From assembly GCA_001785965.1 (NCBI GenBank), contig MFVF01000030.1, positions 1 through 51,148 on the forward strand: 51,148 bases of DNA, read 5' to 3'. Origin of the DNA: Candidatus Nomurabacteria bacterium RIFCSPLOWO2_01_FULL_42_20. GTDB lineage: Bacteria > Patescibacteriota > Minisyncoccia > Phycocordibacterales > CAZVEC01. Below, piece by piece: positions 2,139 to 38,927 of this stretch (the first letter of the stretch is position 1; each line of letters begins with the position of its first letter). The notes beneath the pieces are model-generated. The model did no database searches and was not told the origin of the DNA. It saw only the letters and a list, made by a program, of their open reading frames with translations. A program made the position numbers and the translations under genes.

Positions 2139-3761
2139 ATGACTCAATTAGAGGCACTGAATGTTTTAAAGACTGGCGCCAATGTATTTCTGACCGGCGA
2201 GCCCGGATCGGGGAAGACTTATGTTGTCAATCAATATGTGAAGTATTTGCGCGAACGAAAAATCGAGCCGGCGATTACCGCTTCGACCGGCATTGCCGCC
2301 ACGCACATCGGCGGATATACCATTCACTCTTGGAGCGGGATCGGCATTAAAAATACGCTGACGAAATATGATCTGGATAAAATTGCGCAGAGCGAATATC
2401 TCACTCGCCGGATCCGCAAAGCCAAAGTCTTGATCATTGACGAGATTTCCATGCTCCGCGCCGAGACGCTTTCCATGATTGACGCGGTTTGCCGAGAGGT
2501 GAGGCAATCAAGCGAAGCATTTGGAAATTTGCAAGTAGTTTTAGTCGGCGACTTTTTCCAGTTGCCGCCCATCAATAAGGAGAAACAGGAGAACATTCAA
2601 GTTTCTTTATTGAGTGAAAAGGAAGCTAATTTCGCGTATGAATCAGGAGCCTGGAAAAATATTAAACCGATAACCTGCTATTTGAGCGAACAGCACCGCC
2701 AGGACGACGGCCAATTCTTGGATCTCCTCTGCGCCATTCGGCGCGATACGGTAAATCAAGATCACCTAGATTGTTTGCGGTCGCGTTTTGTCGAAACTGG
2801 TCAGGAAAATATCACCAAGCTTTATTCGCACAATGCCGATGTTGACCGGGTTAATTTGGAAATGTTGGAAAAAATTGGCGAAGAAACGGTTAATTTTGAA
2901 ATGACTTCGGCCGGAGCGCCGGGACTTGTCGCGGGCTTAAAAAAAGGATGCCTCTCGCCGGAGTCGCTTGCGCTCAAAAAACGGGCGGTCGTCATGTGCA
3001 CAAAAAATAATCCGAAGGAGGGTTTTGTAAATGGCACTTTGGGTGTGGTGGCGGATTTTGACGGCTATACTAAATATCCGATTGTGAAAACTTATTCAGG
3101 GCAAACGATTAAAATCTCGCCGATGGATTGGAGCATTGAAGAGCAAGGTAAAATCAAAGCGAAAATCAGCCAAGTTCCGCTTCGGCTGGCCTGGGCGATG
3201 ACGGTTCATAAAAGCCAGGGGATGAGTTTAGATTCGGCGGTGATGGACTTGTCGGGAGTTTTTGAATACGGGCAGGGCTATGTCGCTCTCTCGCGGGTCT
3301 GCCGGCTGTCGGGACTTCATTTGCTTGGTTTGAACGACCGGGCGCTCAAAGTGCATCCGCAAATTTTTGAGCAAGATAATGTTTTTAAAAACGCTTCGGA
3401 GGAGACGCGGAAAACTTTCGGCGAATTGCCGGCCGAAGAAATGAAAAAAATGCACCGCAATTTCATTTCGGCCTTGGGCGGTAAATGGAAGGAAAAGGAA
3501 GTCCCGATGCCCGGAGGGGTCGGGATCCCGACTTCTCCCCAAAAGGAGAATGTCGGGAAAAAACCAAAAAGCAACTATCTGGAAAAAATTCGCGAAAAGC
3601 ACAAAAACGCCTACGCTCGGTGGAGAAAGGAAGAGGAGAAAGATTTAGTCCAAAATTTCAATGAAGGAAAAACAATAAAAGAAATTTCGATTTTACTCGG
3701 CCGAAAAACCGGCGGCATAAGAGCTAGGCTGGTCAAACTTGGCCTGTTGGAAGAAAATTAA
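2139..3761 (+). CDS. Pif1/RecD-family (SF1B) DNA helicase with C-terminal HTH-like tail
   Basis: Walker A GEPGSGKTY, IDEISML, VLVGDFFQLPP, MTVHKSQGMSLD, YVALSRV. C-terminal tail KTIKEISILLGRKTGGIRARLVKLGL. Confidence 0.8.
   Translation: MTQLEALNVLKTGANVFLTGEPGSGKTYVVNQYVKYLRERKIEPAITASTGIAATHIGGYTIHSWSGIGIKNTLTKYDLDKIAQSEYLTRRIRKAKVLIIDEISMLRAETLSMIDAVCREVRQSSEAFGNLQVVLVGDFFQLPPINKEKQENIQVSLLSEKEANFAYESGAWKNIKPITCYLSEQHRQDDGQFLDLLCAIRRDTVNQDHLDCLRSRFVETGQENITKLYSHNADVDRVNLEMLEKIGEETVNFEMTSAGAPGLVAGLKKGCLSPESLALKKRAVVMCTKNNPKEGFVNGTLGVVADFDGYTKYPIVKTYSGQTIKISPMDWSIEEQGKIKAKISQVPLRLAWAMTVHKSQGMSLDSAVMDLSGVFEYGQGYVALSRVCRLSGLHLLGLNDRALKVHPQIFEQDNVFKNASEETRKTFGELPAEEMKKMHRNFISALGGKWKEKEVPMPGGVGIPTSPQKENVGKKPKSNYLEKIREKHKNAYARWRKEEEKDLVQNFNEGKTIKEISILLGRKTGGIRARLVKLGLLEEN
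3498..3535 (+). repeat. GC-rich palindromic element inside the helicase C-terminal linker (in frame)
   Basis: GAAGTC (3498-3503) pairs with GACTTC (3530-3535). It contains GTCGGGATCCCGACTTC (3519-3535), identical to 93-109 in the tRNA insert. Encodes VPMPGGVGIPTS. Confidence 0.55.
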
Positions 3762-20842: not shown

Positions 20843-21364
20843 GTGAAAATAATTTTATTAAAAGACGTGCCGAAATTGGGACGAAAATACGATATCAAAG
20901 AAGCCAGCGACGGCTACGCTTTGAATTTTTTGATTCCCAGAAAATTAGCTGAAAGAGCCACTCCAGAAAAAATCGCCCAAATTGATAAATTAAAAAAAGA
21001 AATGCTGATTGCCAAAGAAGCGGGGGAGCAGGAGCTTTTGAAGGCCTTGGGGGCCATCAAAGGTCTAGAATTGATCATGAAAGCCAAAGTTTCCGACCTG
21101 CCTGCTCGCCTCGCTGACTCGCCTCGCTTCGCGGGCGAAGCGGGAGCTCCGGCGAAGCGGGCCGGCAAGGCAGGAAAAGGCCACCTTTTCTCGAGCATCA
21201 AAAAAGAAGATATAATAGAAAAAATGAAAAAAGATTATAACATAAGTCTCTCCGAGGATTCCATAAAAATGGAAAGCATAAAAGAAACAGGGGAGTTTGA
21301 AATACCGGTCGAAGTCAGCGGCAAAAAATCATCCTTCAAATTGATTGTTGAAAAGATTGATTAA
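20843..21364 (+). CDS. rplI: 50S ribosomal protein L9 (GTG start)
   Basis: MKIILLKDVPKLGRKYDIKEASDGYALNFLIPRKLA, with GHLFSSIKKEDI in the C-domain. Contains a 26-codon GC-rich insert. Confidence 0.9.
   Translation: MKIILLKDVPKLGRKYDIKEASDGYALNFLIPRKLAERATPEKIAQIDKLKKEMLIAKEAGEQELLKALGAIKGLELIMKAKVSDLPARLADSPRFAGEAGAPAKRAGKAGKGHLFSSIKKEDIIEKMKKDYNISLSEDSIKMESIKETGEFEIPVEVSGKKSSFKLIVEKID
21097..21174 (+). repeat. 78-nt GC-rich palindromic element inserted in frame in rplI
   Basis: CCTGCC (21097-21102) pairs with GGCAGG (21169-21174). Internal hairpin CGCTTCG-cggg-CGAAGCG (21125-21142). Encodes roughly DLPARLADSPRFAGEAGAPAKRAGKA between KAKVS and GKGHLF. Confidence 0.7.
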
Positions 21365-21637: not shown

Positions 21638-21675
21638 ATTGCTGAGTGCGGGATTTCGCTTTCAAAGATAAACAT

Positions 21676-23355
21676 ATGGAACAAAGTGAAAATAGAATAT
21701 GTCAAAACTGCCAGACTTCATTTGAGATAGACGCTCAAGATTTTGATTTTTATAAAAAGATCAATGTCCCGCCGCCGACATTTTGCCCGGAGTGCCGGTT
21801 TCAAAGAAGAATCATGTTTAGAAACGAGCGAACTCTTTATCGTAATTCTTGCGGTTTATGCGAGAAACAGATTATAACTATCTTTGATCCAGCTGGAGGC
21901 AAAAAAGTTTATTGTGGTAAATGTTGGTGGAGTGATGGTTGGGATGGCAGAGATTATGGACTTGGGTATAATCCCAATATAAACTTTTTCAAACAGCTTC
22001 GTGAACTTGTTAATAAAACTCCGTACCAATATCTTATTGTTGATTATTCAACTCTTGTGAATAGTGAGTATGTAAACCATGCCGGCAGTCTTAAAAATTG
22101 CTACTTAGTTTTTAACGCAGACCTTTGTGAAAATACTTATTACTCATCGGTAGTGGTAAAAGTTAATGATTCTGCCGACTGCACCATGATGAATAACACG
22201 GAACTTGCTTACGGCTGTATCGGCGGAGATGGGTCACAATTATATTTCTCTGAAAATTGCCCCAAATCTGTTAATGTTTGGTATTCGAAAGATTGCGTGG
22301 GCTGTACTAATTGTTTTGGCTGTGTAAATTTACGCAATAAAAGCTACCATATCTTTAACAAGCCGGTCACCAAAGAAGAATTTGAGAAAAATATTTCTGA
22401 AATGAGGCTCGACCTGCACTCGACACATGTTGCACTGAAGCCAAAAATATATGATTTCTGGAACAAATTTCCGCGAAAATATATGTACGGGCGAATGAAT
22501 AATAATGCAACAGGAGATTATATTTATGAATCTAAAAATGCTCTTGATTGCTATCAGGCGGTTTTTGTAGAAGATAGCCGGTATTGCCAATTCGTCACCA
22601 TGCCAACCACCAGGGATTGCTATGATTTTACCGAGTGGGGACATGGTGTGGAGCGCTGTATTGAGACGATAACAACAGGCGAAGGGGCCTATGAAGTCAA
22701 ATATTGTTCAGGAGTTTGGAGTAATACAAAAAACGTAGAGTATTCTATTTATTCGCCGGGGTGCAATAACTGCTTTGGCTGTGTAAATCTAATAAAAAAA
22801 GAATATTGCATCTTAAACAAGCAGTATTCTAAAGAAGAATTTTTCAAGCTCAAAGAAAAAATTATTTCGGATATAAAAACTAGGCCATATGAAGATTCAA
22901 AGGGGCGTAAGTTTAGTTATGGAGAATTTCTTCCTTATGATCTGTCACCGTTTGATTATAATGAATCATTTGCCCAACAATATTTTCCTCTAACAAAGGA
23001 GGAGACTATTAATAAAGGCTGGCGATATCATAATATTAAAAAACCGGATTATACTCCGACACTTACCACCGATCAGATTCCGGACAGTATTAATGATGTT
23101 AAAGACGACTTTTTGAAAGAAATAATTCCGTGCGTTGAATGTGAAAAACCATTTCGTGTTGTAAAGGGCGAACTAGAGCTGCTTAGACGTTTTAAGATAC
23201 ATGTCCCTCGTTCATGCCCGGATTGCCGTCATATGGGCCGACTCAAAAGAATGAATAAACCAAAATTTAACCACCGAAAATGCCAATGGCGATCACTGTC
23301 CGAACAAATTCGAAACCAGTTATTCTCCCGACCGGCCGGAAATAGTATACTGTGA
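21676..23355 (+). CDS. Cys-rich zinc-ribbon repeat protein, paralog 1 (apparent frameshift near 23284; conserved end in the next frame stops at 23383)
   Basis: N-terminal CQNC...FY.K.NVPPPTFCPECRFQRR and CGLC...VYCGKCWW. Two NCFGCVNL(R/I)(N/K)K.Y motifs. C-terminal CVEC...CPDCRH. The final ribbon DHCPNKF...DRPEIVYCEKCYQSEVV is readable only in the next reading frame (shifted by one base). Confidence 0.7.
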   Translation: MEQSENRICQNCQTSFEIDAQDFDFYKKINVPPPTFCPECRFQRRIMFRNERTLYRNSCGLCEKQIITIFDPAGGKKVYCGKCWWSDGWDGRDYGLGYNPNINFFKQLRELVNKTPYQYLIVDYSTLVNSEYVNHAGSLKNCYLVFNADLCENTYYSSVVVKVNDSADCTMMNNTELAYGCIGGDGSQLYFSENCPKSVNVWYSKDCVGCTNCFGCVNLRNKSYHIFNKPVTKEEFEKNISEMRLDLHSTHVALKPKIYDFWNKFPRKYMYGRMNNNATGDYIYESKNALDCYQAVFVEDSRYCQFVTMPTTRDCYDFTEWGHGVERCIETITTGEGAYEVKYCSGVWSNTKNVEYSIYSPGCNNCFGCVNLIKKEYCILNKQYSKEEFFKLKEKIISDIKTRPYEDSKGRKFSYGEFLPYDLSPFDYNESFAQQYFPLTKEETINKGWRYHNIKKPDYTPTLTTDQIPDSINDVKDDFLKEIIPCVECEKPFRVVKGELELLRRFKIHVPRSCPDCRHMGRLKRMNKPKFNHRKCQWRSLSEQIRNQLFSRPAGNSIL

Positions 23356-23415
23356 GAAATGTTATCAGTCGGAAGTGGTGTAAGCGCTTCTCTAATTCGC
23401 ACGAATAGGAGAATA

Positions 23416-25095
23416 ATGGAAAATAAATCGGAAAACAGAATATGTCAGAATTGTAAGACTTCTTTCGTAATTGAGATAGATGATTTTTCATTTTATGAAA
23501 AAATGAATGTGCCGGCACCCGTTTTATGTCCCAATTGCCGTTTCAAACGCCGGGCGATTTGGCGCAATGAAACCACTCTTTACACCGGCCGCAAATGCGC
23601 CAAATGCGGCAAATCAATTGTTTCGATGTATAATCCAAAATCACCTTACACGGTTTATTGTCACGAGTGCTATAATTCCGATTCCTGGGACCCGAGAGAC
23701 TACGCAATGGATTACAACGAATCAAAACCGTTCTTTGAACAATTTGGCGAATTGATTAAAAAAGTTCCTAAGATGACTACTTACATCACCACTGGATTGG
23801 GCCCAAATGTTAATAGTGACTATACTAATACCGCCGGCGGCAATAAGAATTGCTATATGGTTTTTAATAGTGGTTTAAATGAAAATGTTCTGTATTCTCG
23901 CGGCGTTACTTCTTGCAGAGACTCTCTTGATATGTATTTTACAACTGAAATAGAACTCGGCTATGAATTAGTAAATACGCACAAAGCAAGCAAAATAATT
24001 TGGAGCAAGAACAACCCCGCTTGTCTGGACTGCGCTTTTCTTTTAAATTGCAGTGGGTGCACTAATTGCTTCGGCTGTGTAAACTTGCGCAATAAATCTT
24101 ATCATTTCTTCAACCAACCATTGAGTAAAGAGGAATATCAAGACAAGGTTAACAAAATCATGGGAAGCTATAGAGAGATGGAAAAATTCCGGAAAGAATT
24201 TGAGGATTTTTCTCTTCAATTTCCGCGTCGGGAAAATAATAATCTTAAAACCGTCAATTGCGTCGGAGATTATATCACCGAAGGCAAGAATCTTTTTAAC
24301 TGTTTTGAGGTGGCGGAAGCCGAAGATTGCAAAAATATGTTTTCCGCCAAAAAAATAAAAGATTCTTATGATGTTATTGGTCACGGTTATTACAGCGAAC
24401 TTCTTTTAGAGTGTAATGGGACAGGTATTTCAAGTCGGGTTATTGGTTCGTCTAATGTTGAAAATGGTAATAATTTAGAATATTGTTATTTTTTGATGCC
24501 TAACAACAAGTATTGTTTTGGTTGTAATTCTCTGCGAAATGCCGAATATTGTATTTTAAACAAGCAATACACTAAAGAATCCTTCGACAAGCTCAGGACG
24601 AAAATTATTTCGGAATTAAAAGAAAAAAATTTATATGGTCTTTTTATGCCGCCGGAATTATCGCCTTTTGCCTATAACGAAACGGTTGCCCAAGACAACA
24701 TGCCTCTCTCCAAAGAAGAAGCTTTAAAACAAGGCTGGCGCTGGGAAGACAACTTGCAAAAAACCGAAGGCAAAGAAACTCTTAAACCGGAGCAAATTCC
24801 TGATCATATTAAGGATGTGCAAGACGGCATTACCAAAGAGATTTTGGTCTGCATTTCCTGCAACAGGAATTACAAAATTGTGCCGGATGAACTTTTGTTT
24901 TACCGTAAAATGAATTTGCCTTTGCCCCGCAAGTGCTTCAGTTGCCGCCATACCGACCGAATTCGCCGCCGCGGGCCGATGAAATTCTGGACTCGCCATT
25001 GTGCTAAATGCAATAAAATTATTACAACAACTTTTGCTCCCGACCGCCCCGAAATAGTATACTGTGAGAAATGCTATCAGTCAGAAGTTGTTTAA
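23416..25095 (+). CDS. Cys-rich zinc-ribbon repeat protein, paralog 2
   Basis: AGGAG SD upstream. Same architecture as paralog 1: CQNC...CPNCRFKRR, CAKC...VYCHECY, NCFGCVNLRNKSYHFFNQP, CFGCNSLRNAEYCILNKQY, CISC...CFSCRH, CAKC...VYCEKCYQSEVV. Confidence 0.8.
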   Translation: MENKSENRICQNCKTSFVIEIDDFSFYEKMNVPAPVLCPNCRFKRRAIWRNETTLYTGRKCAKCGKSIVSMYNPKSPYTVYCHECYNSDSWDPRDYAMDYNESKPFFEQFGELIKKVPKMTTYITTGLGPNVNSDYTNTAGGNKNCYMVFNSGLNENVLYSRGVTSCRDSLDMYFTTEIELGYELVNTHKASKIIWSKNNPACLDCAFLLNCSGCTNCFGCVNLRNKSYHFFNQPLSKEEYQDKVNKIMGSYREMEKFRKEFEDFSLQFPRRENNNLKTVNCVGDYITEGKNLFNCFEVAEAEDCKNMFSAKKIKDSYDVIGHGYYSELLLECNGTGISSRVIGSSNVENGNNLEYCYFLMPNNKYCFGCNSLRNAEYCILNKQYTKESFDKLRTKIISELKEKNLYGLFMPPELSPFAYNETVAQDNMPLSKEEALKQGWRWEDNLQKTEGKETLKPEQIPDHIKDVQDGITKEILVCISCNRNYKIVPDELLFYRKMNLPLPRKCFSCRHTDRIRRRGPMKFWTRHCAKCNKIITTTFAPDRPEIVYCEKCYQSEVV

Positions 25096-28509: not shown

Positions 28510-29496
28510 ATGGAAACAAAAAATAAAAATTTAATACCGCAAATTCTTATCATCGCCGTTTTTGTGGTTGGTTTAGTTTTAATTTACCGAGTTGCTCCCC
28601 CGCTTCGCCAAGGCTTCGCAGGGCAAGCGCCGCTTAGCCCTATTACGACAGAGGCCGTGGAGAATTCAAGTCTTGATGGCTCGACTATACTCACCATCAA
28701 TCCTGAGCAAGGTCGAAGGATTGAAGAAAAAGTATTTCCGGAAGAAATTGTTTTGCCTGTTCGCTGGGGCGACTTGGGTTATCAGATGGCTCAAGCGGGA
28801 GTAATCGATAAACAGAAATTTGAAGAACTTTATGAGAGTCGGGGCGGACTTTCAGTGGAAGAGAAGAAATTGCTCGAAGGCCTGTCTAACGGCAACTTGG
28901 TCATAACTCAAGAAAACTCCGGATATGTCTTGAATCTGCTCTGGGCCTTCGGCTTGGGCAATAAAAATCCCGTTTTAGAAGAAGGGCCAATGGTGACATA
29001 CGATGGAGGGGAAGCGGGCTTGTCCGCCGAAGCCTTGGCGAAGGCGGGGCGCTTTGCTTCTACAGGCGGATGGACCCTAGCGAAGGGCGGCGCCATGGAC
29101 CACTATTCAAAACATTCATTCGTTGTCCTGACGACGCAGCAGCAGGCCAAAGTGGAGCACATGGCCAAAAATATTTACCGCCCCTGCTGCGGCAACTCGA
29201 CATATTTCCCGGACTGCAATCATGGCATGGCCATGCTCGGCCTTCTGGAACTTTTGGCCGCAAACGGCGTCTCGGAAGGGGAGATGTATAAAATCGCCCT
29301 TCAGGTCAATTCTTACTGGTTCCCACAAACTTATCTGACGCTCGCTAAATATTTTGAAATGAAAGGCGTCTCTTGGGACAAAGTTGATGCCAAAGAAGTC
29401 TTGGGTTTTGATTTTTCCAGCGCCTCCGGCTATCAGAAAATATTGACAGAAATAACTCCGGCCAATGTCTCCGGAGGCGGCAGCTGCGGCGCTTAA
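28510..29496 (+). CDS. Membrane-anchored extracytoplasmic protein with a Cys cluster, hypothetical
   Basis: N-terminal TM segment, RPCCGNSTYFPDCNHGMAMLG, and a C-terminal GGGSCGA. Confidence 0.6.
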   Translation: METKNKNLIPQILIIAVFVVGLVLIYRVAPPLRQGFAGQAPLSPITTEAVENSSLDGSTILTINPEQGRRIEEKVFPEEIVLPVRWGDLGYQMAQAGVIDKQKFEELYESRGGLSVEEKKLLEGLSNGNLVITQENSGYVLNLLWAFGLGNKNPVLEEGPMVTYDGGEAGLSAEALAKAGRFASTGGWTLAKGGAMDHYSKHSFVVLTTQQQAKVEHMAKNIYRPCCGNSTYFPDCNHGMAMLGLLELLAANGVSEGEMYKIALQVNSYWFPQTYLTLAKYFEMKGVSWDKVDAKEVLGFDFSSASGYQKILTEITPANVSGGGSCGA

Positions 29497-30197: not shown

Positions 30198-33100
30198 ATG
30201 AGTATTTCTAAAACATCTTCAATTGCCGATATTTTAAAGAAAAAAACATCTCTTTCTTCTAATCCCGATATTGCCCTTAAATATTTAAAGAAATTTAAAT
30301 TAAAAGCCCGCAATGTCAGAGCGCTCTATGGCGAGCTGATGGCGCTTTGTTCGGGCCTTCGGCATATCACTCATGAGATTGAATCAATTATTGACAACTT
30401 TTTCGCGGTAGAAGCCGCTATTTTTGAAATAGAAAATCATATTAAAAAAAGCGATTTCAAAAATCTTCCGCTTATTGCCGCCGAAAAAAATAAATATGCC
30501 CCTCGCTTGCACTTCATCCTTTCCGGGCTTCTTAAAGAAAATAGTCAGATTATTGATAGAGAAATATTAGAATCTTTTCTTGTCTCGTACCAAAAGCATA
30601 GCCCGCTTTCAATTAGAGAATTATATGCCATTCCTCTTTTACTCCAAGTCGTTCTTGTTGAACATTTTGGAAAACTTATAGAGCAATCCATAAAATTCCT
30701 TAGAGAATACCGCGAGGCTGATATTACATATCAAAACATAAAAGATCAGGTCAATAAAGCATCATTCAGCGAATTTTCAAAAATTACTTCCGATCTTGGA
30801 TCAAAATACCCGCTTATTCCGCTTTCTTTCGGACTTCATCTCTACCAGAAACTTTCCCAAGAAGGCTCTGTCATGAGGCCGGTTATCAAATGGATAAAGC
30901 TTAATTTAGACAAACAGGGGATTAATCTAAAAAATCTTGGAGAAATAGAAAGCAGATTAAAAAGCGAAGATTTCAATACAATATCGCATATTATCGAATC
31001 GCTTCATTGGATAGCTCAAACTCGCTGGGATGATATTGTGCAGGAAATAAATGTTGTTGATACCATACTTTCAAGAGATCCGGCTGGAATATATTCAAAA
31101 ATGGATATTGAAAGCGCCATGGAGTACCGAAAAGCGATTGTGCGCATTGCTGAAAGAGCGGCTATTCATGAAGCGGAAGTTGCAAAAATTGCCGTAAGAT
31201 TGGCCTCCTCTAATGATGCATCTTTAAGCATGGCTAAAAAGCATGTGGGGTATTATCTTGTGGATAAAGGGATAATTGAACTTGAAAAGAAGATCGGGTA
31301 CCGGCTTTCTTGGAAAGACGTCTTGTATCGCTTTATTGTAAAAAACAATCAGGAATTTTATTTTTCTTCAGCTTTTGGTATTAATATTGTTCTAACTCTC
31401 GGCTTGGGCTTTATTTTTTGGAATTACAATGCTTCACTTTTATCCGCTTCTCTGTTTATGGTTGTTGTTTTTTTATTGAACACTGAAATTACGCTTAATA
31501 TTTTGAATGTTATTATTACTCGTTTCTTGCCGGTAAGAAAGCTTCCGAAGCTTGATCTTTTAAGTGTCGTAAGCGAAAAGCAAAGAACTTTTGTCGTTGT
31601 TCCTTCAATGTTCCACGGTGTTGAAACCGTGCATAATCTTATAAGAAAGCTTGAGGTTTGTTATCTAGGCAATCCTCAGGAAAATATTTTATACGCGCTT
31701 CTGCTTGACTTTAAAGATGCGTCAAGCGAGACGATGCCTGAAGATGACGCCCTTATAAAAGCAACTCAGGAAGGAGTAGATAATCTAAACGCCCGCTATT
31801 CCCAAAATGGCCAAAAATTTTTTATCTTGTACCGAAAACGCATCTGGAATGAAAAAGAGGGCGCTTATATGGGCTGGGAGAGAAAAAGAGGAAAGCTTCG
31901 CGAATTTAATATGCTTCTTAGGGGAGCGCGGGAGACATCATACATGAATGGTGATGTTCTTAGAAATATTGGCCATATTTCTTATGTAATTACTCTAGAT
32001 GAAGACACAGAATTGCCAAAAGACGCCGCCTCTGGGCTTATCGGAACCATTGACCACCCTCTTAATAGGCCCGTGCTTTCTTTATCCGGAGACAGAGTTG
32101 AAAGAGGTTATGGAATTATACAGCCGAGGATAGGCATACGGTTGGCGCTAGCTTCAAAATCAATTTTTTCAAGGCTTTTTTCATCTGTTTCCGGTATTGA
32201 TTCATATTCCAGCGCCGTATCGGATGTCTATTATGATCTTTTTGATAACAGTCTTTTTTTTGGAAAAGGAATATATGATATTGATGCCGTAGAAAAAGTG
32301 ATGGATGGAAAAATTCCAGATAATCTTATTTTATCGCATGATTTGCTCGAGGGACTCTACACTAGAGTAGGTTTTGCCAGCACTATTGTTTTATTTGACG
32401 GTTTTCCAAATTTTTACCACGAATTTATGATTCGCCTGGATCGATGGATCAGGGGCGATTGGCAGATTATTGGCTGGATAAAAAGAAAATATCATCCGAA
32501 GGGAGCCAGAGAGCCAACTCTTCATTTTTCTTTCATTGACAGATGGAAAATTATTGACAACCTGCGCAGAAGCCTCATACCGGTATTTTCAATAATGATC
32601 ATAGCTTATGGAATATTTTCCGCTATGCCGCTAGGGCAGATAAGCATATACGCGGTTTTTGTTTTCGGCGCTCCTTTTTTAGCCGCTCTAGCCAGCGATC
32701 TTTTCTCACTTAAAAAGGTGCCTTTTTCTGTAAGATTTTATGATACATTAAGGCAAATAAAATTGACATTTCTGCATATAATTTTGCGCGCCGCCATCAT
32801 TCTGCACCAGGCAATTGTTTCAATCACGGCGATTTTCAGGGCTATCATTAATTTGATAATAAAGAAAAATCTTCTTAGATGGCATAGTTTCTCCGATGTT
32901 AGCAAAAAATTGAGCGGAAAATTGCTTGGGTATTATCAAACAATGTGGACAACGCAATTTGTATCAATTTTTTTAGCCATCTTAGCCTATTTTTTCGCTC
33001 CGATCAATAATTTTTTGTATTTTTGGCTGATTTTTTGGTTATTGTCTCCCTTAGTCGGGTATTTTATCAGCTTGCCTCGGAATAAAAAGAAAATTCTTAA

Positions 33101-36100
33101 TCCTAAGGATACAAGAATGCTGCGATCCATTGCTTATAGGACATCACATTTTTTTACTGATTTTTCACATAAAGAAAACAATTGGCTGGCCCAAGATAAT
33201 TATCAGGAATATCCTAAAATTATAGGGATTTCACATCCTGCAACTTCTCCAACAAATATAGGAATGCTTTTTACCTCGCTTTTTTCTTCGTATGAATTCG
33301 GATTTATACCTCTTGATCATTATATAGATAAAACCCGCAGGGCTTTCGCGAGCGTTTCAAAACTTGATCGTTTTAAGGGCCATCTTTATAATTGGTATGA
33401 TATTACAAAATTGCAGTCCCTTCACCCGAAATACGTATCAAGCATAGATAGCGCAAATTTTGTCGTGGCTCTCATTACTGTGCGCCAAGGACTCAAATCC
33501 ATTGCCCAAAAACCTCTTGTGAGTAGCAGTGTGATTCGGGGGGTAGAAGATGCGCTTTATGTCTTAGATGAAGAGGTTGAACGCGTGATGAATAGAAATT
33601 CGTTTTCCAAAATTTCCCGAAAAATATTGCGGGCAATACGCCTCAAAGTCAAAGTGGTTTATAAAATGGTCAATACTTTCAATGAGCCTGAAACAATTTC
33701 TGAAGCGTATTTGTTTCTTTCCAAGGTTTACGAACATATAGGCCGCATAGAAAAGTCTATTACCAGCCTTAAAGCGCATACCCATTCAAGCGAACTTAGC
33801 TTTCTGTTTGCATATGGCGAAAGATTGATGAATCTTGTTGAAACTCATCTTAGGTTTATAAGATATATTTTCCCTCACTCCACGCCACTGGATACGGCAA
33901 TACGCTCATATGTTTTCAGGGATATTTATTTGTTTGCGGTGTACAAAGATTTTATAAAGTGTATTCAAAAAATCCCAACTTTTTATGAACTTGCTACTTC
34001 ATATTTAGATCAGGCAGAATCTTTGAATTTCAGAAAAGCAATTATATCTTCACATCTGGCCCCCGATACAAAAAAATATATTTTGTCGTGGTATGACATT
34101 ACAGTAGCTGATATACGTCGCGCCCAATCACGGGCTAGAGAATTTCTTTCTGATATTGAATATTGTGAAAATGAATGCGCTAGATTTATTGATGAGCCGG
34201 ATTTTACGTTCTTTTACAATAAAGAGCGGGGACTTTTTCATATAGGATACAATGCGGCTTTTGGGAAAATTGACAGTGCTACGTATAATTTCTTAGCTTC
34301 AGAATCAAATTCTATTTCATTTGTTTCAATACTCAAAAATCAAATTTCTTCAAAAAACTGGTTTTATTTGGGACGCAAGTTTATACGATCAGGCCAAGGA
34401 ATTGCCCTGGTATCATGGGGCGGTTCGCTTTTTGAATATTTGACTCCTCTTCTTTTCTTCAAAACCCACCCGGAAAGTCTGCTGGGAAAAACAGCTTTGA
34501 CGGCTATCCGCACTCACCAAAGCGATGCTCGAAGAGAGGGCACGCCCTGGGGCATGGGCGAATCCGCCTATTATGCTTTTGACTCCGTGAAGCATTATCA
34601 GTATCAAGTTTTTGGAAGCGCCAAACTTGGTCTGAAGCGCGGCCTTTCTGATCATCATGTAATTGCTCCTTACACCAGTATTTTGGCGCTTTCTGTTGCC
34701 CTGCGCAAAGCAGTCGACAATATTAAAAATTTAATTTCTTTGGGCGCGAAAGGGAATTATGGCTTGTATGATGCCATTGATTATATGGATGAAAGGCGAG
34801 TAAGAATTTCCGAACCCCTGCCAATAAAGATATATTATGCCCACCATCAAGGTTTTGTTATGCTTGGCCTCCACAATATTCTCCTCAAAAATACGATTCA
34901 GGAATATTTTCACAATGATCCCCGAGTTGAAGCGCTCGAAATTCTTCTTGAAGAAAAAATGCCGACAAGCATAGACGCGCGGTTCTTGTCAAAGCCAGTA
35001 AGAATGTCTCTGGCGGTCGCTTCTACAAGCAGAGATACCGGCTTTGAAAGTAAAAGATATATTCCCGCCAAGATCCGCATTCCTCGATATGCTCTTATAT
35101 CAAATGGTTCTTATTCCATAGGAATCAGTAATTCCGGCGCCGGATGGTCTAATTATAAAGGTGTTTCCTTAACCCGGTCGAGACACGACGGTATCATAGA
35201 AGAATATGGCTCATATATTTTCGTTAAGGATGAAAAGACCGGCATGGTCTGGTCTCCAACAATTCATCCGCTCTCGCGAGAGGCCCAAAAGCAAAAAATT
35301 ATTTTTTTTGAGAATAAAGCCGAATTTTTTTCCTCCATGGGCAATATTGCTTCCCGGCTGGAAGTAACAGTCGATCCGCAAAATCCTGTCGAGGTGAGGC
35401 AGTTGACCATGACAAATAATGGAAGTGAAAGAGTTAAGCTCCAAGTAGCGAGTTACGGGGAAGTGTCGCTTGCTCTCAATCTGCAGGATGTCCAGCATCC
35501 AAAATATCATAAGCTTTTGGTGGCATCAGAATTTCTAGAGGAATACGATACTCTTATATATTCGCGCCCTCATCCGGAAGATAGATTGAAAAAAATTTAT
35601 TTTTCCCACACCCTTGTTCAGGGGGTGTTTGAAAAAGCGCCAATATTTCCCTGTGTGGAAAGAGAAAAGTTTATTGGCCAGTATGGGTCATTATCAGAGC
35701 CTATCATTTTTAACTCGAATATAACTGATTCAGGCGTGAAAGAATATTCCCTTGACCCCATATTTTCCTTGCGCCACACTATCGATCTTAAAGCCGGGGA
35801 ATCAGTTCATTTTTCTTTTGTAAATTGCGCGAGTGAGAGCAGGGAAGAACTCATAAGGCTGATTAAGCAATATAAAAAACCAAGGATGCTGGCGAATCTT
35901 TTTGCTCGCGCGGAAAAGGAAAGCGCTATGACGACTAAAAAATTAAACATCACTCAGGAAATGGCCGTCGTTTATCAGGAACTTGCGAGCGTGGTGCTGG
36001 GCGGAAAGATGCAAACTACAGTGTCTCATGCGCCTGAAACGCGCCTTCCTTACATTCATTTTTTATGGCACCATGGAATTTCCGGAAATAATCCTCTTGT

Positions 36101-38927
36101 AATGATAGCCATAAAAGACACTGAAGATCTTCAAATGATCCAATATGCCTTGTCATGCCATGCTTATTGGAAACACAAGGGCTTGAATATTGATATTGTT
36201 ATTTTTAATCAAGAACCCGCGAGTTATATAAAGTTTTTAGATGATGAAATAGACTTTCTTATCCGCCAAAAACGCATAGCGGAGGCCGATGGCAAGAAAA
36301 GTGCCGTATATCATGTTAAGTCCGATTTGATGACAAACGAAGAAAGAAAGGCGCTTCTCTTTGCCGCTAAAGTCATAATCGACAGTAAGACCGGCAGTTT
36401 TAAAAAGCAGGTTTCAAACTTCCTCTTTTCAAAAAATTTAAAATTTCCGGAAAAACTTTCAGCCCTTGCTCGTCATTCTAAAATTTCACCAAAAACAGCA
36501 TTAAGGGGGGCGCTGCCAAAAAATTTGCTTTTTACCAATAGTTTTGGCGGATTTGATGAGATAAATTCAGAATACGCAATGCATATTTCCAGCAATAATA
36601 TGCCGCCGGCTCCATGGACAAATATTATTTCAAATGAAAATTTTGGAACTATTATTACTGAGGCCGGTTCAGCGAATACATGGGCCGTCGATAGTTATGA
36701 TAATCGCATTACTTCATGGCAGAATGATTCTCTCGTATTCAAAAGTCCTGAAATTGTTTATATTCGCGATAAGGAAACGGGCGAAATATGGAATCCGACT
36801 CCGTTTCCGGTGCCTACGGACGAACCATTTATTGTCCGCCATGGAAAAGGCTACACCATATTTGAACATAATCATTCTGGCATTGAACACTCATTTGAGA
36901 TTTTTGTGCCCCGATCTGAAAAAATAAAGATATCTCGTCTTAAAATTAAAAATAAAACAAAGATAAAAAGAAATCTATCCGTCACTTCGTATTTGGAAAC
37001 GGTAATGGGTATTAGTATTGACCCTAGTAATAGTCGGGATTTTTTGCAGTTTTCAAAAAACCGTGCTACCGGCGCTCTCTTGATTAGAAACATGTTTAGA
37101 AATAATTTTCACAATAGCATTGCTTTTGCAGATATAAATGGCGGCTCATATAAGGTTTCCACCAATAGGGAGGAATTTTTGGGCCGTTATGGCTCTTATA
37201 GTTCCCCTGAAGCTCTTAGTCGAGTTTCTCTTTCAGATGAGATTACCCATGGCTCCGAAGGGTGCGCGGTATTAGAGAGTGTTATCAAACTCGATCCGGA
37301 TGAGGAAAAAGAAATCATTATCATTCTTGGCGAAACCGAAAGCGAATCAGAAGTTGAGCGAATGATTATCAAGTATCGTTCAATAAAGAATGTTAAAGCA
37401 GAGCGAGAAAAAATTCGTTCATTTTGGTCATCCGTTTCATCAAAAATTCAGATTGAATCTCCCGACAAAAAGCTTGATATTATGTTTAATCAAAATCTTT
37501 TATATCAAGTGCTGTCGTCTCGCTTGATGGCAAAAACCGGATTTGACCAGCCGGGCGGCGCCTATGGTTTCAGAGACCAGCTTCAAGATATTATTTCTTT
37601 GGTTTGGTCGAATCCAGGGCGTGTCCGATCATTTATTCTGAAAGCCGCGATGCATCAATTTAAAGAAGGAGACGCGATGAATTGGTGGCACGACCATAAT
37701 AATTTTGGAATTCGAAACGTGCTTTCCGACCATCAGTTATGGCTTGTATATGCGATTACTGAATATATTTCTATCACAGGAGACAAAGATATTCTTGATG
37801 AATTAATCCCATATCTTGAAGGACACGATGTTAATTTCACTTATCAAAGGGAATGGGCGGGCATCCCGGATCTTTCTAATGAAAAAGACACTCTGTATGA
37901 GCACTCTATCAGAGCGCTTGAAAAAAGCCTGGTTTTTGGAAAACACAATCTGCCTCTTATAGGAATGAGTGACTGGAATGACGGTCTTTCAAGAGTGGGG
38001 ATTTTGGGCAAAGGTGAAAGTGTTTGGTTAGGGTGGTTTCTTATTTATCTTCTGGAAAAAATTATTCCTTACGTGGAAGAAAGAAATGACACTCTGCGTC
38101 TTTCTCGCTACAAGCTCGCAATAGACAATCTTGTGAAAGCCCTTGATAAAAACGCCTGGGATGGGAGGTGGTATAAAAGAGCTTTCCTCGACAATGGTGT
38201 CGCTCTTGGCTCGCACAAACTGAAGGAATTTAAAATAGATTCTCTTTCGCAATCTTGGTCAGTCTTATCAAAAAAAGGCAATCCCGAAAAAGTTTCAAAA
38301 GCTATTCATTCAGGGCTCTCGTATCTGTATAATGGAAAAAGCATGAAGATTATCGCGCCGCCGCTCAAAATGTCTTTATTTGATCCGGGTTATATAAAAG
38401 ATTATCCGCCCGGTGTTCGCGAAAACGGCTCGCAGTATAATCACGCGGCGCTTTTTATGGCTCAAGCCCTTTTTATTCTGGGCGAATCAGATACCGCGAA
38501 AAAGATTATTGATTTAGTAAATCCGATTACCCACTCTGATTCCCATAAAAAAGCTTTAGTCTATCGTGCCCAACCAAATGTCGTCGCTTCAGATATTTAT
38601 ACCAATCCTTCATTTGAAGGCAGGGGCGGATGGACTTGGTATACGGGTTCCGCGGCTACAATGTATAAAACTATTATTCAGTTTATGTTTGGTTTTAATA
38701 AAAAAGGGGATTCTCTTTCTTTCAGCCCTTCTTTACCTTCAGACTGGACTTCGTGCGCCATCACATATCATTATGGAAATTCTTTGTATCATATAAATAT
38801 TGAAAAGCCGGCCGGCATCCACAATACTGTTATGGAAGTGTATGAAAATAACGTAAAAATAAAAGATAAAACAATCAAGCTCGTTGATGACAGTCAAGAA
38901 CATTTTATTAAAGTTGTTCTATCCTAG
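30198..38927 (+). CDS. cgs: Cyclic beta-1,2-glucan synthase-like giant protein (GT84 domain, TM segments, GH94 phosphorylase-like C-terminus)
   Basis: 2909-aa uninterrupted ORF. GT-region motifs ITLDEDTELPKDA, ILSHDLLEG and RWIRGDWQ, flanked by multiple TM helices. C-terminal GH94-like motifs FRDQLQD, GMSDWNDGL and ENGSQYNHAA. Confidence 0.8.
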   Translation: MSISKTSSIADILKKKTSLSSNPDIALKYLKKFKLKARNVRALYGELMALCSGLRHITHEIESIIDNFFAVEAAIFEIENHIKKSDFKNLPLIAAEKNKYAPRLHFILSGLLKENSQIIDREILESFLVSYQKHSPLSIRELYAIPLLLQVVLVEHFGKLIEQSIKFLREYREADITYQNIKDQVNKASFSEFSKITSDLGSKYPLIPLSFGLHLYQKLSQEGSVMRPVIKWIKLNLDKQGINLKNLGEIESRLKSEDFNTISHIIESLHWIAQTRWDDIVQEINVVDTILSRDPAGIYSKMDIESAMEYRKAIVRIAERAAIHEAEVAKIAVRLASSNDASLSMAKKHVGYYLVDKGIIELEKKIGYRLSWKDVLYRFIVKNNQEFYFSSAFGINIVLTLGLGFIFWNYNASLLSASLFMVVVFLLNTEITLNILNVIITRFLPVRKLPKLDLLSVVSEKQRTFVVVPSMFHGVETVHNLIRKLEVCYLGNPQENILYALLLDFKDASSETMPEDDALIKATQEGVDNLNARYSQNGQKFFILYRKRIWNEKEGAYMGWERKRGKLREFNMLLRGARETSYMNGDVLRNIGHISYVITLDEDTELPKDAASGLIGTIDHPLNRPVLSLSGDRVERGYGIIQPRIGIRLALASKSIFSRLFSSVSGIDSYSSAVSDVYYDLFDNSLFFGKGIYDIDAVEKVMDGKIPDNLILSHDLLEGLYTRVGFASTIVLFDGFPNFYHEFMIRLDRWIRGDWQIIGWIKRKYHPKGAREPTLHFSFIDRWKIIDNLRRSLIPVFSIMIIAYGIFSAMPLGQISIYAVFVFGAPFLAALASDLFSLKKVPFSVRFYDTLRQIKLTFLHIILRAAIILHQAIVSITAIFRAIINLIIKKNLLRWHSFSDVSKKLSGKLLGYYQTMWTTQFVSIFLAILAYFFAPINNFLYFWLIFWLLSPLVGYFISLPRNKKKILNPKDTRMLRSIAYRTSHFFTDFSHKENNWLAQDNYQEYPKIIGISHPATSPTNIGMLFTSLFSSYEFGFIPLDHYIDKTRRAFASVSKLDRFKGHLYNWYDITKLQSLHPKYVSSIDSANFVVALITVRQGLKSIAQKPLVSSSVIRGVEDALYVLDEEVERVMNRNSFSKISRKILRAIRLKVKVVYKMVNTFNEPETISEAYLFLSKVYEHIGRIEKSITSLKAHTHSSELSFLFAYGERLMNLVETHLRFIRYIFPHSTPLDTAIRSYVFRDIYLFAVYKDFIKCIQKIPTFYELATSYLDQAESLNFRKAIISSHLAPDTKKYILSWYDITVADIRRAQSRAREFLSDIEYCENECARFIDEPDFTFFYNKERGLFHIGYNAAFGKIDSATYNFLASESNSISFVSILKNQISSKNWFYLGRKFIRSGQGIALVSWGGSLFEYLTPLLFFKTHPESLLGKTALTAIRTHQSDARREGTPWGMGESAYYAFDSVKHYQYQVFGSAKLGLKRGLSDHHVIAPYTSILALSVALRKAVDNIKNLISLGAKGNYGLYDAIDYMDERRVRISEPLPIKIYYAHHQGFVMLGLHNILLKNTIQEYFHNDPRVEALEILLEEKMPTSIDARFLSKPVRMSLAVASTSRDTGFESKRYIPAKIRIPRYALISNGSYSIGISNSGAGWSNYKGVSLTRSRHDGIIEEYGSYIFVKDEKTGMVWSPTIHPLSREAQKQKIIFFENKAEFFSSMGNIASRLEVTVDPQNPVEVRQLTMTNNGSERVKLQVASYGEVSLALNLQDVQHPKYHKLLVASEFLEEYDTLIYSRPHPEDRLKKIYFSHTLVQGVFEKAPIFPCVEREKFIGQYGSLSEPIIFNSNITDSGVKEYSLDPIFSLRHTIDLKAGESVHFSFVNCASESREELIRLIKQYKKPRMLANLFARAEKESAMTTKKLNITQEMAVVYQELASVVLGGKMQTTVSHAPETRLPYIHFLWHHGISGNNPLVMIAIKDTEDLQMIQYALSCHAYWKHKGLNIDIVIFNQEPASYIKFLDDEIDFLIRQKRIAEADGKKSAVYHVKSDLMTNEERKALLFAAKVIIDSKTGSFKKQVSNFLFSKNLKFPEKLSALARHSKISPKTALRGALPKNLLFTNSFGGFDEINSEYAMHISSNNMPPAPWTNIISNENFGTIITEAGSANTWAVDSYDNRITSWQNDSLVFKSPEIVYIRDKETGEIWNPTPFPVPTDEPFIVRHGKGYTIFEHNHSGIEHSFEIFVPRSEKIKISRLKIKNKTKIKRNLSVTSYLETVMGISIDPSNSRDFLQFSKNRATGALLIRNMFRNNFHNSIAFADINGGSYKVSTNREEFLGRYGSYSSPEALSRVSLSDEITHGSEGCAVLESVIKLDPDEEKEIIIILGETESESEVERMIIKYRSIKNVKAEREKIRSFWSSVSSKIQIESPDKKLDIMFNQNLLYQVLSSRLMAKTGFDQPGGAYGFRDQLQDIISLVWSNPGRVRSFILKAAMHQFKEGDAMNWWHDHNNFGIRNVLSDHQLWLVYAITEYISITGDKDILDELIPYLEGHDVNFTYQREWAGIPDLSNEKDTLYEHSIRALEKSLVFGKHNLPLIGMSDWNDGLSRVGILGKGESVWLGWFLIYLLEKIIPYVEERNDTLRLSRYKLAIDNLVKALDKNAWDGRWYKRAFLDNGVALGSHKLKEFKIDSLSQSWSVLSKKGNPEKVSKAIHSGLSYLYNGKSMKIIAPPLKMSLFDPGYIKDYPPGVRENGSQYNHAALFMAQALFILGESDTAKKIIDLVNPITHSDSHKKALVYRAQPNVVASDIYTNPSFEGRGGWTWYTGSAATMYKTIIQFMFGFNKKGDSLSFSPSLPSDWTSCAITYHYGNSLYHINIEKPAGIHNTVMEVYENNVKIKDKTIKLVDDSQEHFIKVVLS

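What the first reader, a model, noticed from the sequence alone, without database searches (positions are those of the whole stretch)
21097..21174. Ribosomal protein L9 carries a 78-nt GC-rich palindromic insertion that preserves the reading frame
A 26-codon block lies between KAKVS and GKGHLFSSIKKEDI, the start of the L9 C-domain. It is bounded by CCTGCC and GGCAGG and contains the CGCTTCG-cggg-CGAAGCG hairpin. Its GC content contrasts sharply with the rest of rplI. It encodes low-complexity Ala/Arg/Gly/Pro sequence (DLPARLADSPRFAGEAGAPAKRAGKA), with no counterpart in the approximately 149-aa Bacillus L9 as I recall it. An exact multiple of 3 with no stop codons in a ribosomal protein suggests either selection for tolerated insertions or removal at the RNA level.
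Basis: partly seen in the sequence, partly recalled or inferred. Interest (0 to 1): 0.7.

Follow-up and report, generated by a model that had tools for sequence, protein, structure and literature searches.

The report
Nested mobile hairpins inside L9 gene
The 78-base GC-rich block in this Nomurabacteria ribosomal protein L9 gene is three copies of tiny hairpin-forming repeated DNA elements nested inside one another and read through in frame; the 21-base core element turns up unchanged in over a hundred unrelated genes and spacers in environmental genomes.

Summary
rplI (20843..21364, +) carries an exact 78-nt, about 76% GC palindromic insertion at 21097..21174. A 90%-identical ortholog lacks exactly these bases (…TCCGA|TAAAGG…).

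The insert is not peculiar to L9. Its outer shell is a 21-nt hairpin, CCTGCCTGCCGGCAAGGCAGG, encoding LPAGKAG. That 21-mer alone occupies the same L9 site in a related lineage. It also sits seamlessly in gltX of another Paceibacterota genome and in a glucose-6-phosphate isomerase gene whose empty and filled alleles coexist in one sample.

The 78 nt rebuild exactly as 21-mer + 30-mer + 27-mer. The first two units were also seen alone; the 27-mer was not.

There is no target-site duplication. Insertion falls after GA of a GAN codon. Among copies inside ORFs, 70% lie in the LPAGKAG frame against 31% expected. This argues for translation and selection, not RNA-level removal.

In L9 the 26 residues form a predicted disordered loop at the first β-hairpin turn of the C-domain.

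Best reading: a REP/RPE-like selfish hairpin element, possibly moved by an HUH-type single-strand transposase. The transposase step is inferred, not shown. I found no description of it in the searchable literature. I rate it a new variant of a known kind.

The parts
20843..21364 (+). rplI, ribosomal protein bL9, 173 aa including the insert. The organism is Candidatus Nomurabacteria bacterium RIFCSPLOWO2_01_FULL_42_20. NCBI labels the protein 'hypothetical protein' (OGI70677.1).
   Evidence: ORF list; Pfam L9_N and L9_C; homologs; exact-sequence look-up with longest contig 51148; organism name.
21095..21096 (+). GA, the first two bases of the split Asp codon. This is the 5' flank of the insertion site. 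The third base of the original codon is now at 21175 (T in relatives, A here).
   Evidence: Empty-site alignment with L002, and filled sites in L001 and L004.
21097..21174 (+). The whole 78-nt composite palindromic insert. It encodes LPARLADSPRFAGEAGAPAKRAGKAG.
   Evidence: It is rebuilt exactly from three units.
21097..21104 (+). Outer unit L1, left part (CCTGCCTG) of the 21-mer CCTGCCTGCCGGCAAGGCAGG.
   Evidence: The 21-mer occurs alone at the same L9 site in P0003/P0004, in gltX of L042, in PGI, and in more than 100 metagenome loci.
21162..21174 (+). Outer unit L1, right part (CCGGCAAGGCAGG).
   Evidence: Same as for the left part. All 21 shared bases are identical to L004, while the rest of the gene is 72.7% identical.
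21105..21117 (+). Middle unit L2, left part (CTCGCCTCGCTGA) of the 30-mer CTCGCCTCGCTGAAGCTCCGGCGAAGCGGG.
   Evidence: The 30-mer occurs alone, exactly, in loci L250, L252 and L253. The L1+L2 51-mer occurs in another gene in L167 with 1 nt difference.
21145..21161 (+). Middle unit L2, right part (AGCTCCGGCGAAGCGGG).
   Evidence: direct repeat D8.
21118..21144 (+). Inner unit L3, a 27-mer CTCGCCTCGCTTCGCGGGCGAAGCGGG. It has the same arms as L2 with a 6-nt centre (TTCGCG), and it is inserted after CTGA of L2. Its tip is the hairpin CGCTTCG-CGGG-CGAAGCG at 21125..21142.
   Evidence: Direct repeats D8/D9 and inverted repeat I20; exact reconstruction. This exact 27-mer was not found alone. A 27-nt relative with a different centre is in L251.

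Best explanation
The 78 nt are selfish repeated DNA. They are a three-deep nest of very short GC-rich hairpin-forming elements: a 21-nt unit, a 30-nt unit inside it, and a 27-nt unit inside that.

Shown:
- The 21-nt unit is a discrete, repeatedly inserted sequence.
- It enters DNA seamlessly, with no target-site duplication.
- It usually lands right after a GA dinucleotide.
- In three genes with matched empty sites, it sits between the 2nd and 3rd base of a GAN (Asp/Glu) codon.
- Every unit length is a multiple of three, and the 21-mer has no stop codon in any of its six frames.

Inferred from the frame statistics:
- Copies in coding DNA are translated.
- Selection keeps mainly those in the frame that gives the Gly/Ala/Pro-rich peptide LPAGKAG, located in surface loops.

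In rplI the insert lies in the turn of the first beta-hairpin of the L9 C-domain. L9's C-domain projects away from the ribosome body (established knowledge of L9 structure). There the insert adds a 26-residue loop that is predicted to be disordered and is probably harmless.

Inferred, not shown: the units move as single-stranded hairpins through a trans-acting HUH/Y1 transposase of the IS200/IS605 or RAYT type ('peel and paste'). That mechanism would explain the missing duplication, the preference for a short 5' motif, the footprint-free empty alleles, and insertion into the exposed tips of other hairpins.
For: - **Exact empty/filled pairs in three genes.** rplI: window against L002. gltX: L042 AAAATAGA[21 nt]AAAAATA against L063, L029 and L016 AAAATAGA|NAAAATT. 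Glucose-6-phosphate isomerase: L270/L271 filled against L269 empty, with L269 and L270 from the same sample ERZ27227323. The first 165 aligned positions are identical apart from the 21 nt, although the genes differ at about 9% overall.
- **Copy number.** The 21-mer is in 7 viral-collection loci, while its reversed-sequence control is in none.
- **Host diversity.** By my reading of the host sequences, the genes include DnaE, PolA, IleRS, PheT, PNPase, FtsK, IF-2 and type I restriction-modification subunits. Only PGI was confirmed by a Pfam hit. One PolA host is named Candidatus Adlerbacteria, and gltX is from Paceibacterota. The PGI contig has a Por_Secre_tail neighbour, which suggests Bacteroidota.
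- **Frame bias.** 56 of 80 copies inside ORFs are in the DLPAGKAG frame, against 31% expected from GA/TC availability (chi-square p about 1e-11).
- **Nesting.** The window insert equals L1 + L2 + L3 exactly. L1 and L2 are each seen alone, and the L1+L2 intermediate is seen in another gene.
- **Conservation.** The 21 outer bases are 21/21 identical between two L9 lineages whose genes are otherwise 72.7% identical (P about 0.001). Presence and absence do not follow the L9 or PGI trees.
- **GA preference.** GA precedes the element in 5 of 6 contexts found without requiring GA. L3 also sits after CTGA.
- **Structure.** AlphaFold2 gives pLDDT below 50 for residues 82-117, between strand 76-81 and the GHLF strand. 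The site maps to the AKAGEGG turn of 1DIV.
- **Stability.** All 12 members of the 90% protein cluster, drawn from NCBI, JGI, ENA and other sources, keep the full insert.
Against: - No transposase has been linked to the element. I could not screen for one, so the HUH mechanism rests only on the anatomy.
- The element lacks the GTAG or CGTC tag of classical REPs (PMC3733652).
- The L2-into-L1 junction is not preceded by GA, so nesting may follow a different rule, such as targeting of hairpin tips.
- Copy density in the sampled Paceibacteria is low. There is one copy in this 51-kb window and about two in 1.3 Mb of related genomes.
- The census is biased. It required exact termini and, in the large scan, a GA prefix. 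Several contexts are orthologous and so not independent.
- Translation of the insert is inferred, not observed.
- Identical 21-mers in genomes ranging from 30% to 67% GC are unusual for a REP-like family and remain unexplained.
Confidence: 0.78

Rival explanations
1. The palindrome grew locally. Replication template switching or hairpin-primed repair at this spot of rplI created and extended an inverted repeat de novo, with no mobile element involved.
For: The insert has internal direct and inverted repeats: CTCGCCTCGCT twice and GGCGAAGCGGG twice. Three L9 lineages carry different lengths (21, 30 and 78 nt) at the same site, which could look like stepwise local growth.
Against: The same 21-mer, the same 30-mer and the 51-nt intermediate occur base for base in unrelated genes and genomes. 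Local mutation cannot produce identical 21-51-nt sequences repeatedly. A composition-matched reversed control had zero hits.
Confidence: 0.04
2. The insert is an adaptive protein feature. The extra loop gives L9, and the other host proteins, a new function such as an interaction or modification motif (D)LPAGKAG.
For: There is a strong preference for one reading frame. The insert is retained in all 12 variants of this lineage. A related segment, PAEALAKAG, is conserved across many orthologs of another window protein.
Against: The conservation is at the DNA level, including synonymous positions. About a third of copies lie outside long ORFs. The hosts are functionally unrelated housekeeping and restriction enzymes. 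Closely related lineages and co-occurring strains lack the insert. The loop is predicted to be disordered.
Confidence: 0.07
3. The hairpin acts at the RNA or DNA level for the host, for example as an mRNA stabiliser, an RNase III site, a translational pause site or a protein-binding site. Its spread reflects that use rather than selfishness.
For: The hairpins are stable. Copies inside ORFs favour the sense orientation, 63 to 17. The outer stem is perfectly conserved between diverged L9 genes. REPs are proposed to act as RNA elements (PMC3733652).
Against: The orientation bias is explained equally well by peptide tolerance. The positions are scattered inside unrelated genes with no common location. 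Presence/absence polymorphism occurs within single populations. No known RNA family matches.
Confidence: 0.08
4. The 78 nt are removed or bypassed during gene expression, as an intron-like element or by translational hopping, so mature L9 is normal.
For: None beyond the stable hairpin. Bypassed inserts are known in yeast-relative mitochondria and in T4 gene 60 (my own knowledge).
Against: All unit lengths are multiples of 3, the 21-mer has no stop codon in any frame, and there is strong frame selection. None of these would be needed if the element were removed. There is no intron or ribozyme signature. The 21-nt form is too small for an intron.
Confidence: 0.02
5. The insert is a sequencing or assembly artefact, such as an adaptor or a chimeric hairpin.
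For: Palindromes can arise from amplification chimeras.
Against: The identical L9 protein with the insert was recovered on at least 20 contigs from NCBI, JGI, ENA and other sources. The frame bias and the codon-exact empty sites are biological signatures.
Confidence: 0.01

Closest known systems
Rickettsia palindromic elements (RPEs; Ogata et al. 2000 and 2002, as summarised in PMC10969869 and PMC3733652)
   Same: They are palindromic repeated elements that insert in frame into many unrelated, still functional protein-coding genes. They add peptide segments that appear compatible with the protein fold, and they are regarded as selfish DNA.
   Different: RPEs are about 100-150 bp (shorter for RPE-4 and RPE-6), are confined to Rickettsia and its relatives, and according to PMC3733652 carry a CGTC tag. 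The element here is 21-30 nt per unit, is GC-rich in AT-rich hosts, nests inside itself, and occurs with identical sequence in Patescibacteria, in a probable Bacteroidota contig and in GC-rich virus-labelled contigs. I did not test for sequence relationship to RPEs.
REP / REPIN elements mobilised by RAYT (IS200/IS605-family HUH tyrosine transposases), including the intragenic REPs described in PMC3733652
   Same: They are imperfect palindromes of 20-40 nt that occur as singles, inverted dimers (seen here in L094 and L102) and clusters. They have no coding capacity of their own. Some are found inside replication and repair genes. The absence of a target-site duplication fits single-strand HUH transposition.
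   Different: There is no GTAG or CGTC tag. Most copies here lie inside ORFs rather than outside genes. Copy density per genome appears low. The distribution crosses phyla. No RAYT has been identified.
Mobile GC clusters of yeast mitochondrial DNA (reviewed in PMC8811140), hairpin-forming repeats of sponge mitochondria (PMC2800124), and coding palindromes of Nematomorpha mitochondria (PMC6649704)
   Same: They are short GC-rich hairpin elements that invade very AT-rich genomes, sometimes inside coding sequence and sometimes inside one another.
   Different: Those are organellar systems and the sequences are unrelated. The yeast clusters are generally reported with short target duplications (my own knowledge). 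None of this was tested here.
Classical bacterial MITEs (Correia, ERIC, RUP and others; PMC10969869)
   Same: They are non-autonomous elements with inverted-repeat ends, and they occasionally form in-frame fusions with host ORFs.
   Different: MITEs are 70-300 bp, are moved by DDE transposases, and create target-site duplications. Here there is no duplication and the basic unit is 21 nt. In one assembly the 21-mer is itself a passenger inside an ordinary MITE of about 170 nt.

Membership tests
Ribosomal protein bL9 (host gene) | An N-terminal L9_N domain and a C-terminal L9_C domain joined by a long helix | tested here: met
   Pfam PF01281 (E 6.6e-21) and PF03948 (E 5.8e-09). PDB L9 chains match both halves. 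The AlphaFold2 model shows helix 41-72 between the two domains.
REP / REPIN (RAYT-associated) | Short (20-40 nt) imperfect palindrome, repeated | tested here: met
   The units are 21, 27 and 30 nt and form hairpins. There are more than 100 copies across collections.
REP / REPIN (RAYT-associated) | Conserved GTAG (or CGTC) tetranucleotide at one end (PMC3733652) | tested here: not met
   The ends are (GA)CCTGCC... and ...GGCAGG, with no GTAG or CGTC.
REP / REPIN (RAYT-associated) | Predominantly extragenic location | tested here: not met
   80 of 116 distinct contexts lie inside ORFs of at least 120 aa.
REP / REPIN (RAYT-associated) | A cognate RAYT / HUH transposase gene in the same genome | not tested
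   Only fragments of the host genomes are available, and no transposase screen was run.
IS200/IS605-type single-strand ('peel and paste') mobilisation | No target-site duplication, and footprint-free empty sites | tested here: met
   Three empty/filled pairs are exact to the base.
IS200/IS605-type single-strand ('peel and paste') mobilisation | Insertion immediately 3' of a short specific target motif | tested here: inconclusive
   GA precedes the element in 5 of 6 contexts found without requiring GA, and L3 follows CTGA. However, unselected extra copies follow AA or TA, and the L2-in-L1 junction does not follow GA.
Rickettsia palindromic elements | In-frame insertion into functional ORFs of unrelated genes | tested here: met
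Rickettsia palindromic elements | Roughly 100-150-bp families restricted to Rickettsia and relatives | tested here: not met
   The units are 21-30 nt. The hosts include Nomurabacteria, Paceibacterota and Adlerbacteria.
DDE-type MITE | Target-site duplication flanking terminal inverted repeats | tested here: not met
   None of the three empty/filled pairs shows a duplication.
Self-splicing intron, intein or known structured RNA | Match to a known RNA family, or an intein/intron-sized element | tested here: not met
   Rfam gives only a tRNA elsewhere in the window at gathering thresholds. Around rplI there are only sub-threshold miRNA-like hairpin hits. At 26 aa, or 21 nt for the basic unit, the element is too small.

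The most novel reading that the evidence does not exclude
A cosmopolitan, currently active family of the smallest known mobile elements. These are 21-30-nt hairpins whose lengths are multiples of three and which lack stop codons, so that they can live inside protein-coding genes. They insert without footprints after GA, preferentially survive in one reading frame, nest inside each other's loops, and are shared base for base across distant bacterial phyla and virus-labelled contigs. That distribution would imply an as yet unidentified broad-host-range mobilising enzyme.
Probability: 0.4. Interest if true: 0.85.

Novelty: new variant of a known kind. Interest (0 to 1): 0.72.

Why it matters
Coding palindromes have been treated as a curiosity, mainly of Rickettsia and a few organelles. 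If this family is what it appears to be, several things follow.
- Very small hairpin elements would be shown to colonise essential genes (ribosomal proteins, tRNA synthetases, DNA polymerases) in the reduced genomes of Patescibacteria and beyond.
- They would be a recurrent source of new surface loops in proteins.
- They would have practical consequences. They break profile-HMM annotation: this L9 is labelled 'hypothetical protein' at NCBI. They create apparent low-complexity inserts in protein alignments. They offer strain-level presence/absence markers.
- The co-occurring filled and empty alleles make the transposition mechanism directly testable with existing metagenomic reads.

Tried and rejected
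- **Second copy in the window.** I looked for another copy of the 78-mer or its core. There is none. Only 8-11-nt chance matches appear, and other GC-rich hairpins in the window belong to different sequences.
- **Rfam.** Scans at gathering threshold and at permissive E-value found nothing relevant.
- **Peptide search.** Searching the protein database with the insert peptide failed. A 50-aa concatenated query found only 14 candidates and none scored. That tool is unsuitable for short low-complexity queries.
- **18-mer palindrome.** CCTGCCTGCGCAGGCAGG, encoding LPAQAG, occurs in L081 and L050 and in 25 virus-labelled loci. Most viral contexts are GC-rich generic hairpins and I ran no control, so I do not count it as family evidence.
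- **An autonomous parent element.** I looked for one through the six WBZY01 copies. They proved to be copies of an ordinary MITE of about 170 nt (terminal repeat GAGACTTCTGAA) that carries the 21-mer as a passenger, not a transposase-bearing element.
- **Chance pattern matches.** Long-gap matches in GC-rich contigs (L139, L184, L211, L233, L235, and most long viral hits) are ordinary coding sequence. I treat them as noise when describing the nested forms, but they were not removed from the 116-context frame tally.
- **Artefact, local template switching and RNA removal.** I considered and rejected each, for the reasons given under the rival explanations.
- **Taxonomy of host contigs.** Exact-sequence look-up named only 2 of 10 hosts.

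Full report
**1. The observation**

The ORF at 20843..21364 (+ strand, GTG start, 173 aa) is ribosomal protein bL9. It matches Pfam L9_N over residues 1-47 (E 6.6e-21) and L9_C over residues 109-159 (E 5.8e-09). An exact-sequence look-up identifies the window as a 51,148-bp contig of Candidatus Nomurabacteria bacterium RIFCSPLOWO2_01_FULL_42_20. NCBI calls this protein 'hypothetical'.

- It runs CCTGCC...GGCAGG, with the hairpin CGCTTCG-CGGG-CGAAGCG at 21125..21142.
- It holds the highest 60-nt GC value in the whole window, 0.78, in a gene that is otherwise 25-40% GC.
- It folds much better than shuffled controls, both as RNA and as DNA.

**2. Exact boundaries and position in the protein**

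Among 735 homologs, nearly all are 147 aa. The closest insert-free ortholog is P0002, 90% protein identity outside the insert by the alignment tool. It reads KAKVSD-KGHLF, and its DNA reads ...TCCGA|TAAAGG... The window has exactly 78 extra bases at the bar, with no duplicated flank. The insertion therefore splits an Asp codon after its second base.

AlphaFold2, run with a 61-sequence alignment, gives pLDDT below 50 for residues 82-117. These lie between strand 76-81 and the GHLF strand. Alignment to the Geobacillus L9 structure 1DIV puts the site at the AKAGEGG turn of the first beta-hairpin of the C-domain. So the insert sits in a surface turn, not in the interdomain linker.

Of 80 GTDB species representatives of Nomurabacteria and Paceibacteria, 79 have no insert at this site.

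**3. Shorter versions at the same site**

The lineage of Nomurabacteria GW2011_GWB1_37_5 (P0003, and also P0004) has only seven extra residues here, LPAGKAG. These are encoded by the 21-mer CCTGCCTGCCGGCAAGGCAGG, which equals the two ends of the window's insert. A distant L9 (P0020) has a related 30-nt form.

The 21 shared bases are identical between the window and L004, although the rest of the gene is only 72.7% identical (P about 0.001). The insert-free P0002 is as close to the window as the short-insert P0004 is (88% each). P0003 is an outgroup to all three. The pattern therefore needs either repeated insertion at one site or precise loss.

**4. The same DNA in other genes**

A short-word BLAST of the insert against the related loci hit gltX of a Paceibacterota MAG (L042). 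That gene reads ...AAAATAGA-CCTGCCTGCCGGCAAGGCAGG-AAAAATA..., which translates as ELKI-DLPAGKAG-KIIP. Dozens of gltX orthologs lack exactly these seven codons and read AAAATAGA|NAAAATT.

Three collection scans extended this.
- The viral collection, scanned for the two termini with a variable interior, gave seven loci with the exact 21-mer.
- The reversed sequence, used as a control with the same composition, gave none.

After removing duplicates there are 116 contexts. The contigs are mostly 34-47% GC, but range up to 58% (95th percentile) and higher.

By my reading of the host sequences, the hosts include DnaE, PolA, IleRS, PheT, PNPase, FtsK, IF-2, a UvrD-like helicase and type I restriction-modification subunits. 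Only glucose-6-phosphate isomerase was confirmed by a Pfam hit. One PolA host is named Candidatus Adlerbacteria.

**5. A recent event**

One 90%-identity cluster of glucose-6-phosphate isomerases contains both SD-LPAGKAG-V and SE-V forms. The filled allele (L270) and the empty allele (L269) come from the same ENA sample. Their first 165 aligned positions are identical apart from the 21 nt, inserted between TCTGA and AGTT. Overall the genes differ at about 9% of sites. Presence and absence again cut across sequence relatedness. The neighbouring gene on the empty-allele contig carries a Por_Secre_tail domain, which suggests a Bacteroidota host.

**6. Rules of insertion and survival**

- All three empty/filled pairs are seamless and lack a target-site duplication.
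- GA precedes the element in five of six contexts that were found without requiring GA. Some unselected extra copies follow AA or TA instead.
- Of 80 copies lying in ORFs of at least 120 aa, 56 are in the frame GAC-CTG-CCT... (DLPAGKAG). The other five frames hold 3, 4, 10, 3 and 4.
- From the availability of GA/TC dinucleotides in 1,378 long ORFs of the same loci, only 31% would be expected in the favoured frame (chi-square p about 1e-11).
- My own translation of the 21-mer shows that four of the five disfavoured frames encode a Cys and all five an Arg. No frame has a stop codon.
- About a third of the contexts (36 of 116) are not in a long ORF.

Together these points indicate that copies are translated and filtered by selection. 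This is the opposite of what RNA-level removal would predict.

**7. Nesting**

The window's 78 nt can be rebuilt exactly in two steps. First, the 30-mer CTCGCCTCGCTGAAGCTCCGGCGAAGCGGG is inserted after base 8 of the 21-mer. Second, the 27-mer CTCGCCTCGCTTCGCGGGCGAAGCGGG is inserted after CTGA of the 30-mer.

Independent evidence for the units:
- The 30-mer occurs alone, base for base, in three loci of the viral collection.
- The 51-nt intermediate occurs in a different gene in a Hainich groundwater contig (L167), with one substitution.
- A 42-nt form, the 21-mer plus a 21-nt version of the inner unit, occurs in two further contexts (L138, L165).
- Solo inner units occur in L245 and L178.
- The exact 27-mer was not found alone. 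A 27-nt relative with a different centre is in L251.

All unit lengths (21, 27, 30) are multiples of three.

**8. Interpretation**

The L9 insert is one instance of a family of non-autonomous, hairpin-forming repeated elements. These elements tolerate life inside genes, and appear suited to it. The closest concepts are the Rickettsia palindromic elements and the intragenic REPs (PMC10969869, PMC3733652).

Four features fit single-strand HUH (IS200/IS605 or RAYT-type) transposition: the lack of a duplication, the short 5' motif, the footprint-free empty alleles and the hairpin itself. No transposase was examined, so this step is inference.

The family also fails defining features of the known groups. 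It has no GTAG or CGTC tag. It is mostly intragenic. It is far smaller than RPEs or MITEs. It is not lineage-restricted.

Full-text searches for the DNA string, for the peptide, and for CPR together with MITE, REP or palindromic terms returned nothing relevant.

**9. Caveats**

- Several contexts are orthologous: DnaE twice, one protein with NELKK-DLPAGKAG four times, another five times.
- A few long-gap pattern matches in GC-rich contigs look like ordinary coding sequence rather than family members, and they were not removed from the 116-context tally.
- Host taxonomy is known for only a few loci.
- The 'viral' labels are as given by IMG/VR.
- Why identical 21-mers occur in genomes from 30% to 67% GC is unexplained.
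- Translation of the L9 insert has not been observed directly.

Noticed in passing
window about 28597-28623 (- strand) and about 29024-29049 (+ strand), both inside ORF 28510..29496: There are two opposite-orientation copies of a second GC-rich repeat with the core CGAAGCCTTGGCGAAG. The full form is CCTGCC-CGCCGAAGCCTTGGCGAAGGCGGG, encoding LPAEALAKAG, and it shares its termini with the L9 element. The same core (at most 1 mismatch) is in L009 and L161, and the longer 24-mer CCGCCGAAGCCTTGGCGAAGGCGG is exact in 12 virus-labelled contigs. In this protein family the 12-residue segment containing PAEALAKAG is present in most CPR orthologs but absent from P0153, P0212 and P0194. That looks like an old, widely inherited insertion of the same kind.
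   Followed up: partly
L163, L169, L171, L179, L192, L193 (WBZY01/WBZR01 contigs): An ordinary MITE-like repeat of about 170 nt, with terminal inverted repeats GAGACTTCTGAA.../...TTCAGAAGTCTC, carries the 21-mer hairpin as a passenger and is present in at least six copies.
   Followed up: partly
L094 632-673 and L102 2003-2044: Two 21-mers lie head to head and form a perfect 42-nt palindrome, a REPIN-like inverted dimer. Further variant copies (CCTGCCTACCGGCAAGGCAGG) lie in tandem in the same contig.
   Followed up: no
window 11529-11600: A 72-nt GC-rich (78%) structured block, -42 kcal/mol, sits in an AT-rich spacer flanked by T and A runs (TTTTTTGGGGG...CCCCCAAAAA). It contains CTCTGCCAGCAGGCAGAG. 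It may be a bidirectional terminator or another hairpin element.
   Followed up: no
window 10483-10506, 95-131, 3519-3532: There is a perfect 24-nt palindrome CCGTTCCGACCTAGGTCGGAACGG in an intergenic spacer. Related GGTCGGAAC / GTCGGGATCCCGAC motifs occur near the tRNA-Ile at the window start and inside ORF 2139..3761. This appears to be a separate small repeat family.
   Followed up: no
window 21646..23355 and 23359..25095: Two adjacent paralogous Cys-rich proteins of about 570 aa with weak treble-clef zinc-finger hits lie directly downstream of rplI. They are preceded by a 10-bp-stem hairpin (CCCCCACACC / GGTGTGGGGG) at about 21518-21549.
   Followed up: no
window 20843..21364: NCBI annotates this L9 as 'hypothetical protein' (OGI70677.1, OGI91366.1), while UniRef calls it bL9. 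The insert probably weakens the L9_C profile match. In a related contig the precomputed hit is flagged 'weak'.
   Followed up: partly
host proteins from L224, L154, L173 and L152: Several host proteins carry additional similar peptides elsewhere: NLPAGQAG..., GNLPAGRQGE, ALPAGRSH, and DLPAPLPEPGE next to what looks like a GIY-YIG-like segment. This suggests multiple hairpin insertions per gene and further subfamilies.
   Followed up: no
window 30198..38927: A single 2,909-aa ORF occupies 8.7 kb of the window. It was not examined.
   Followed up: no
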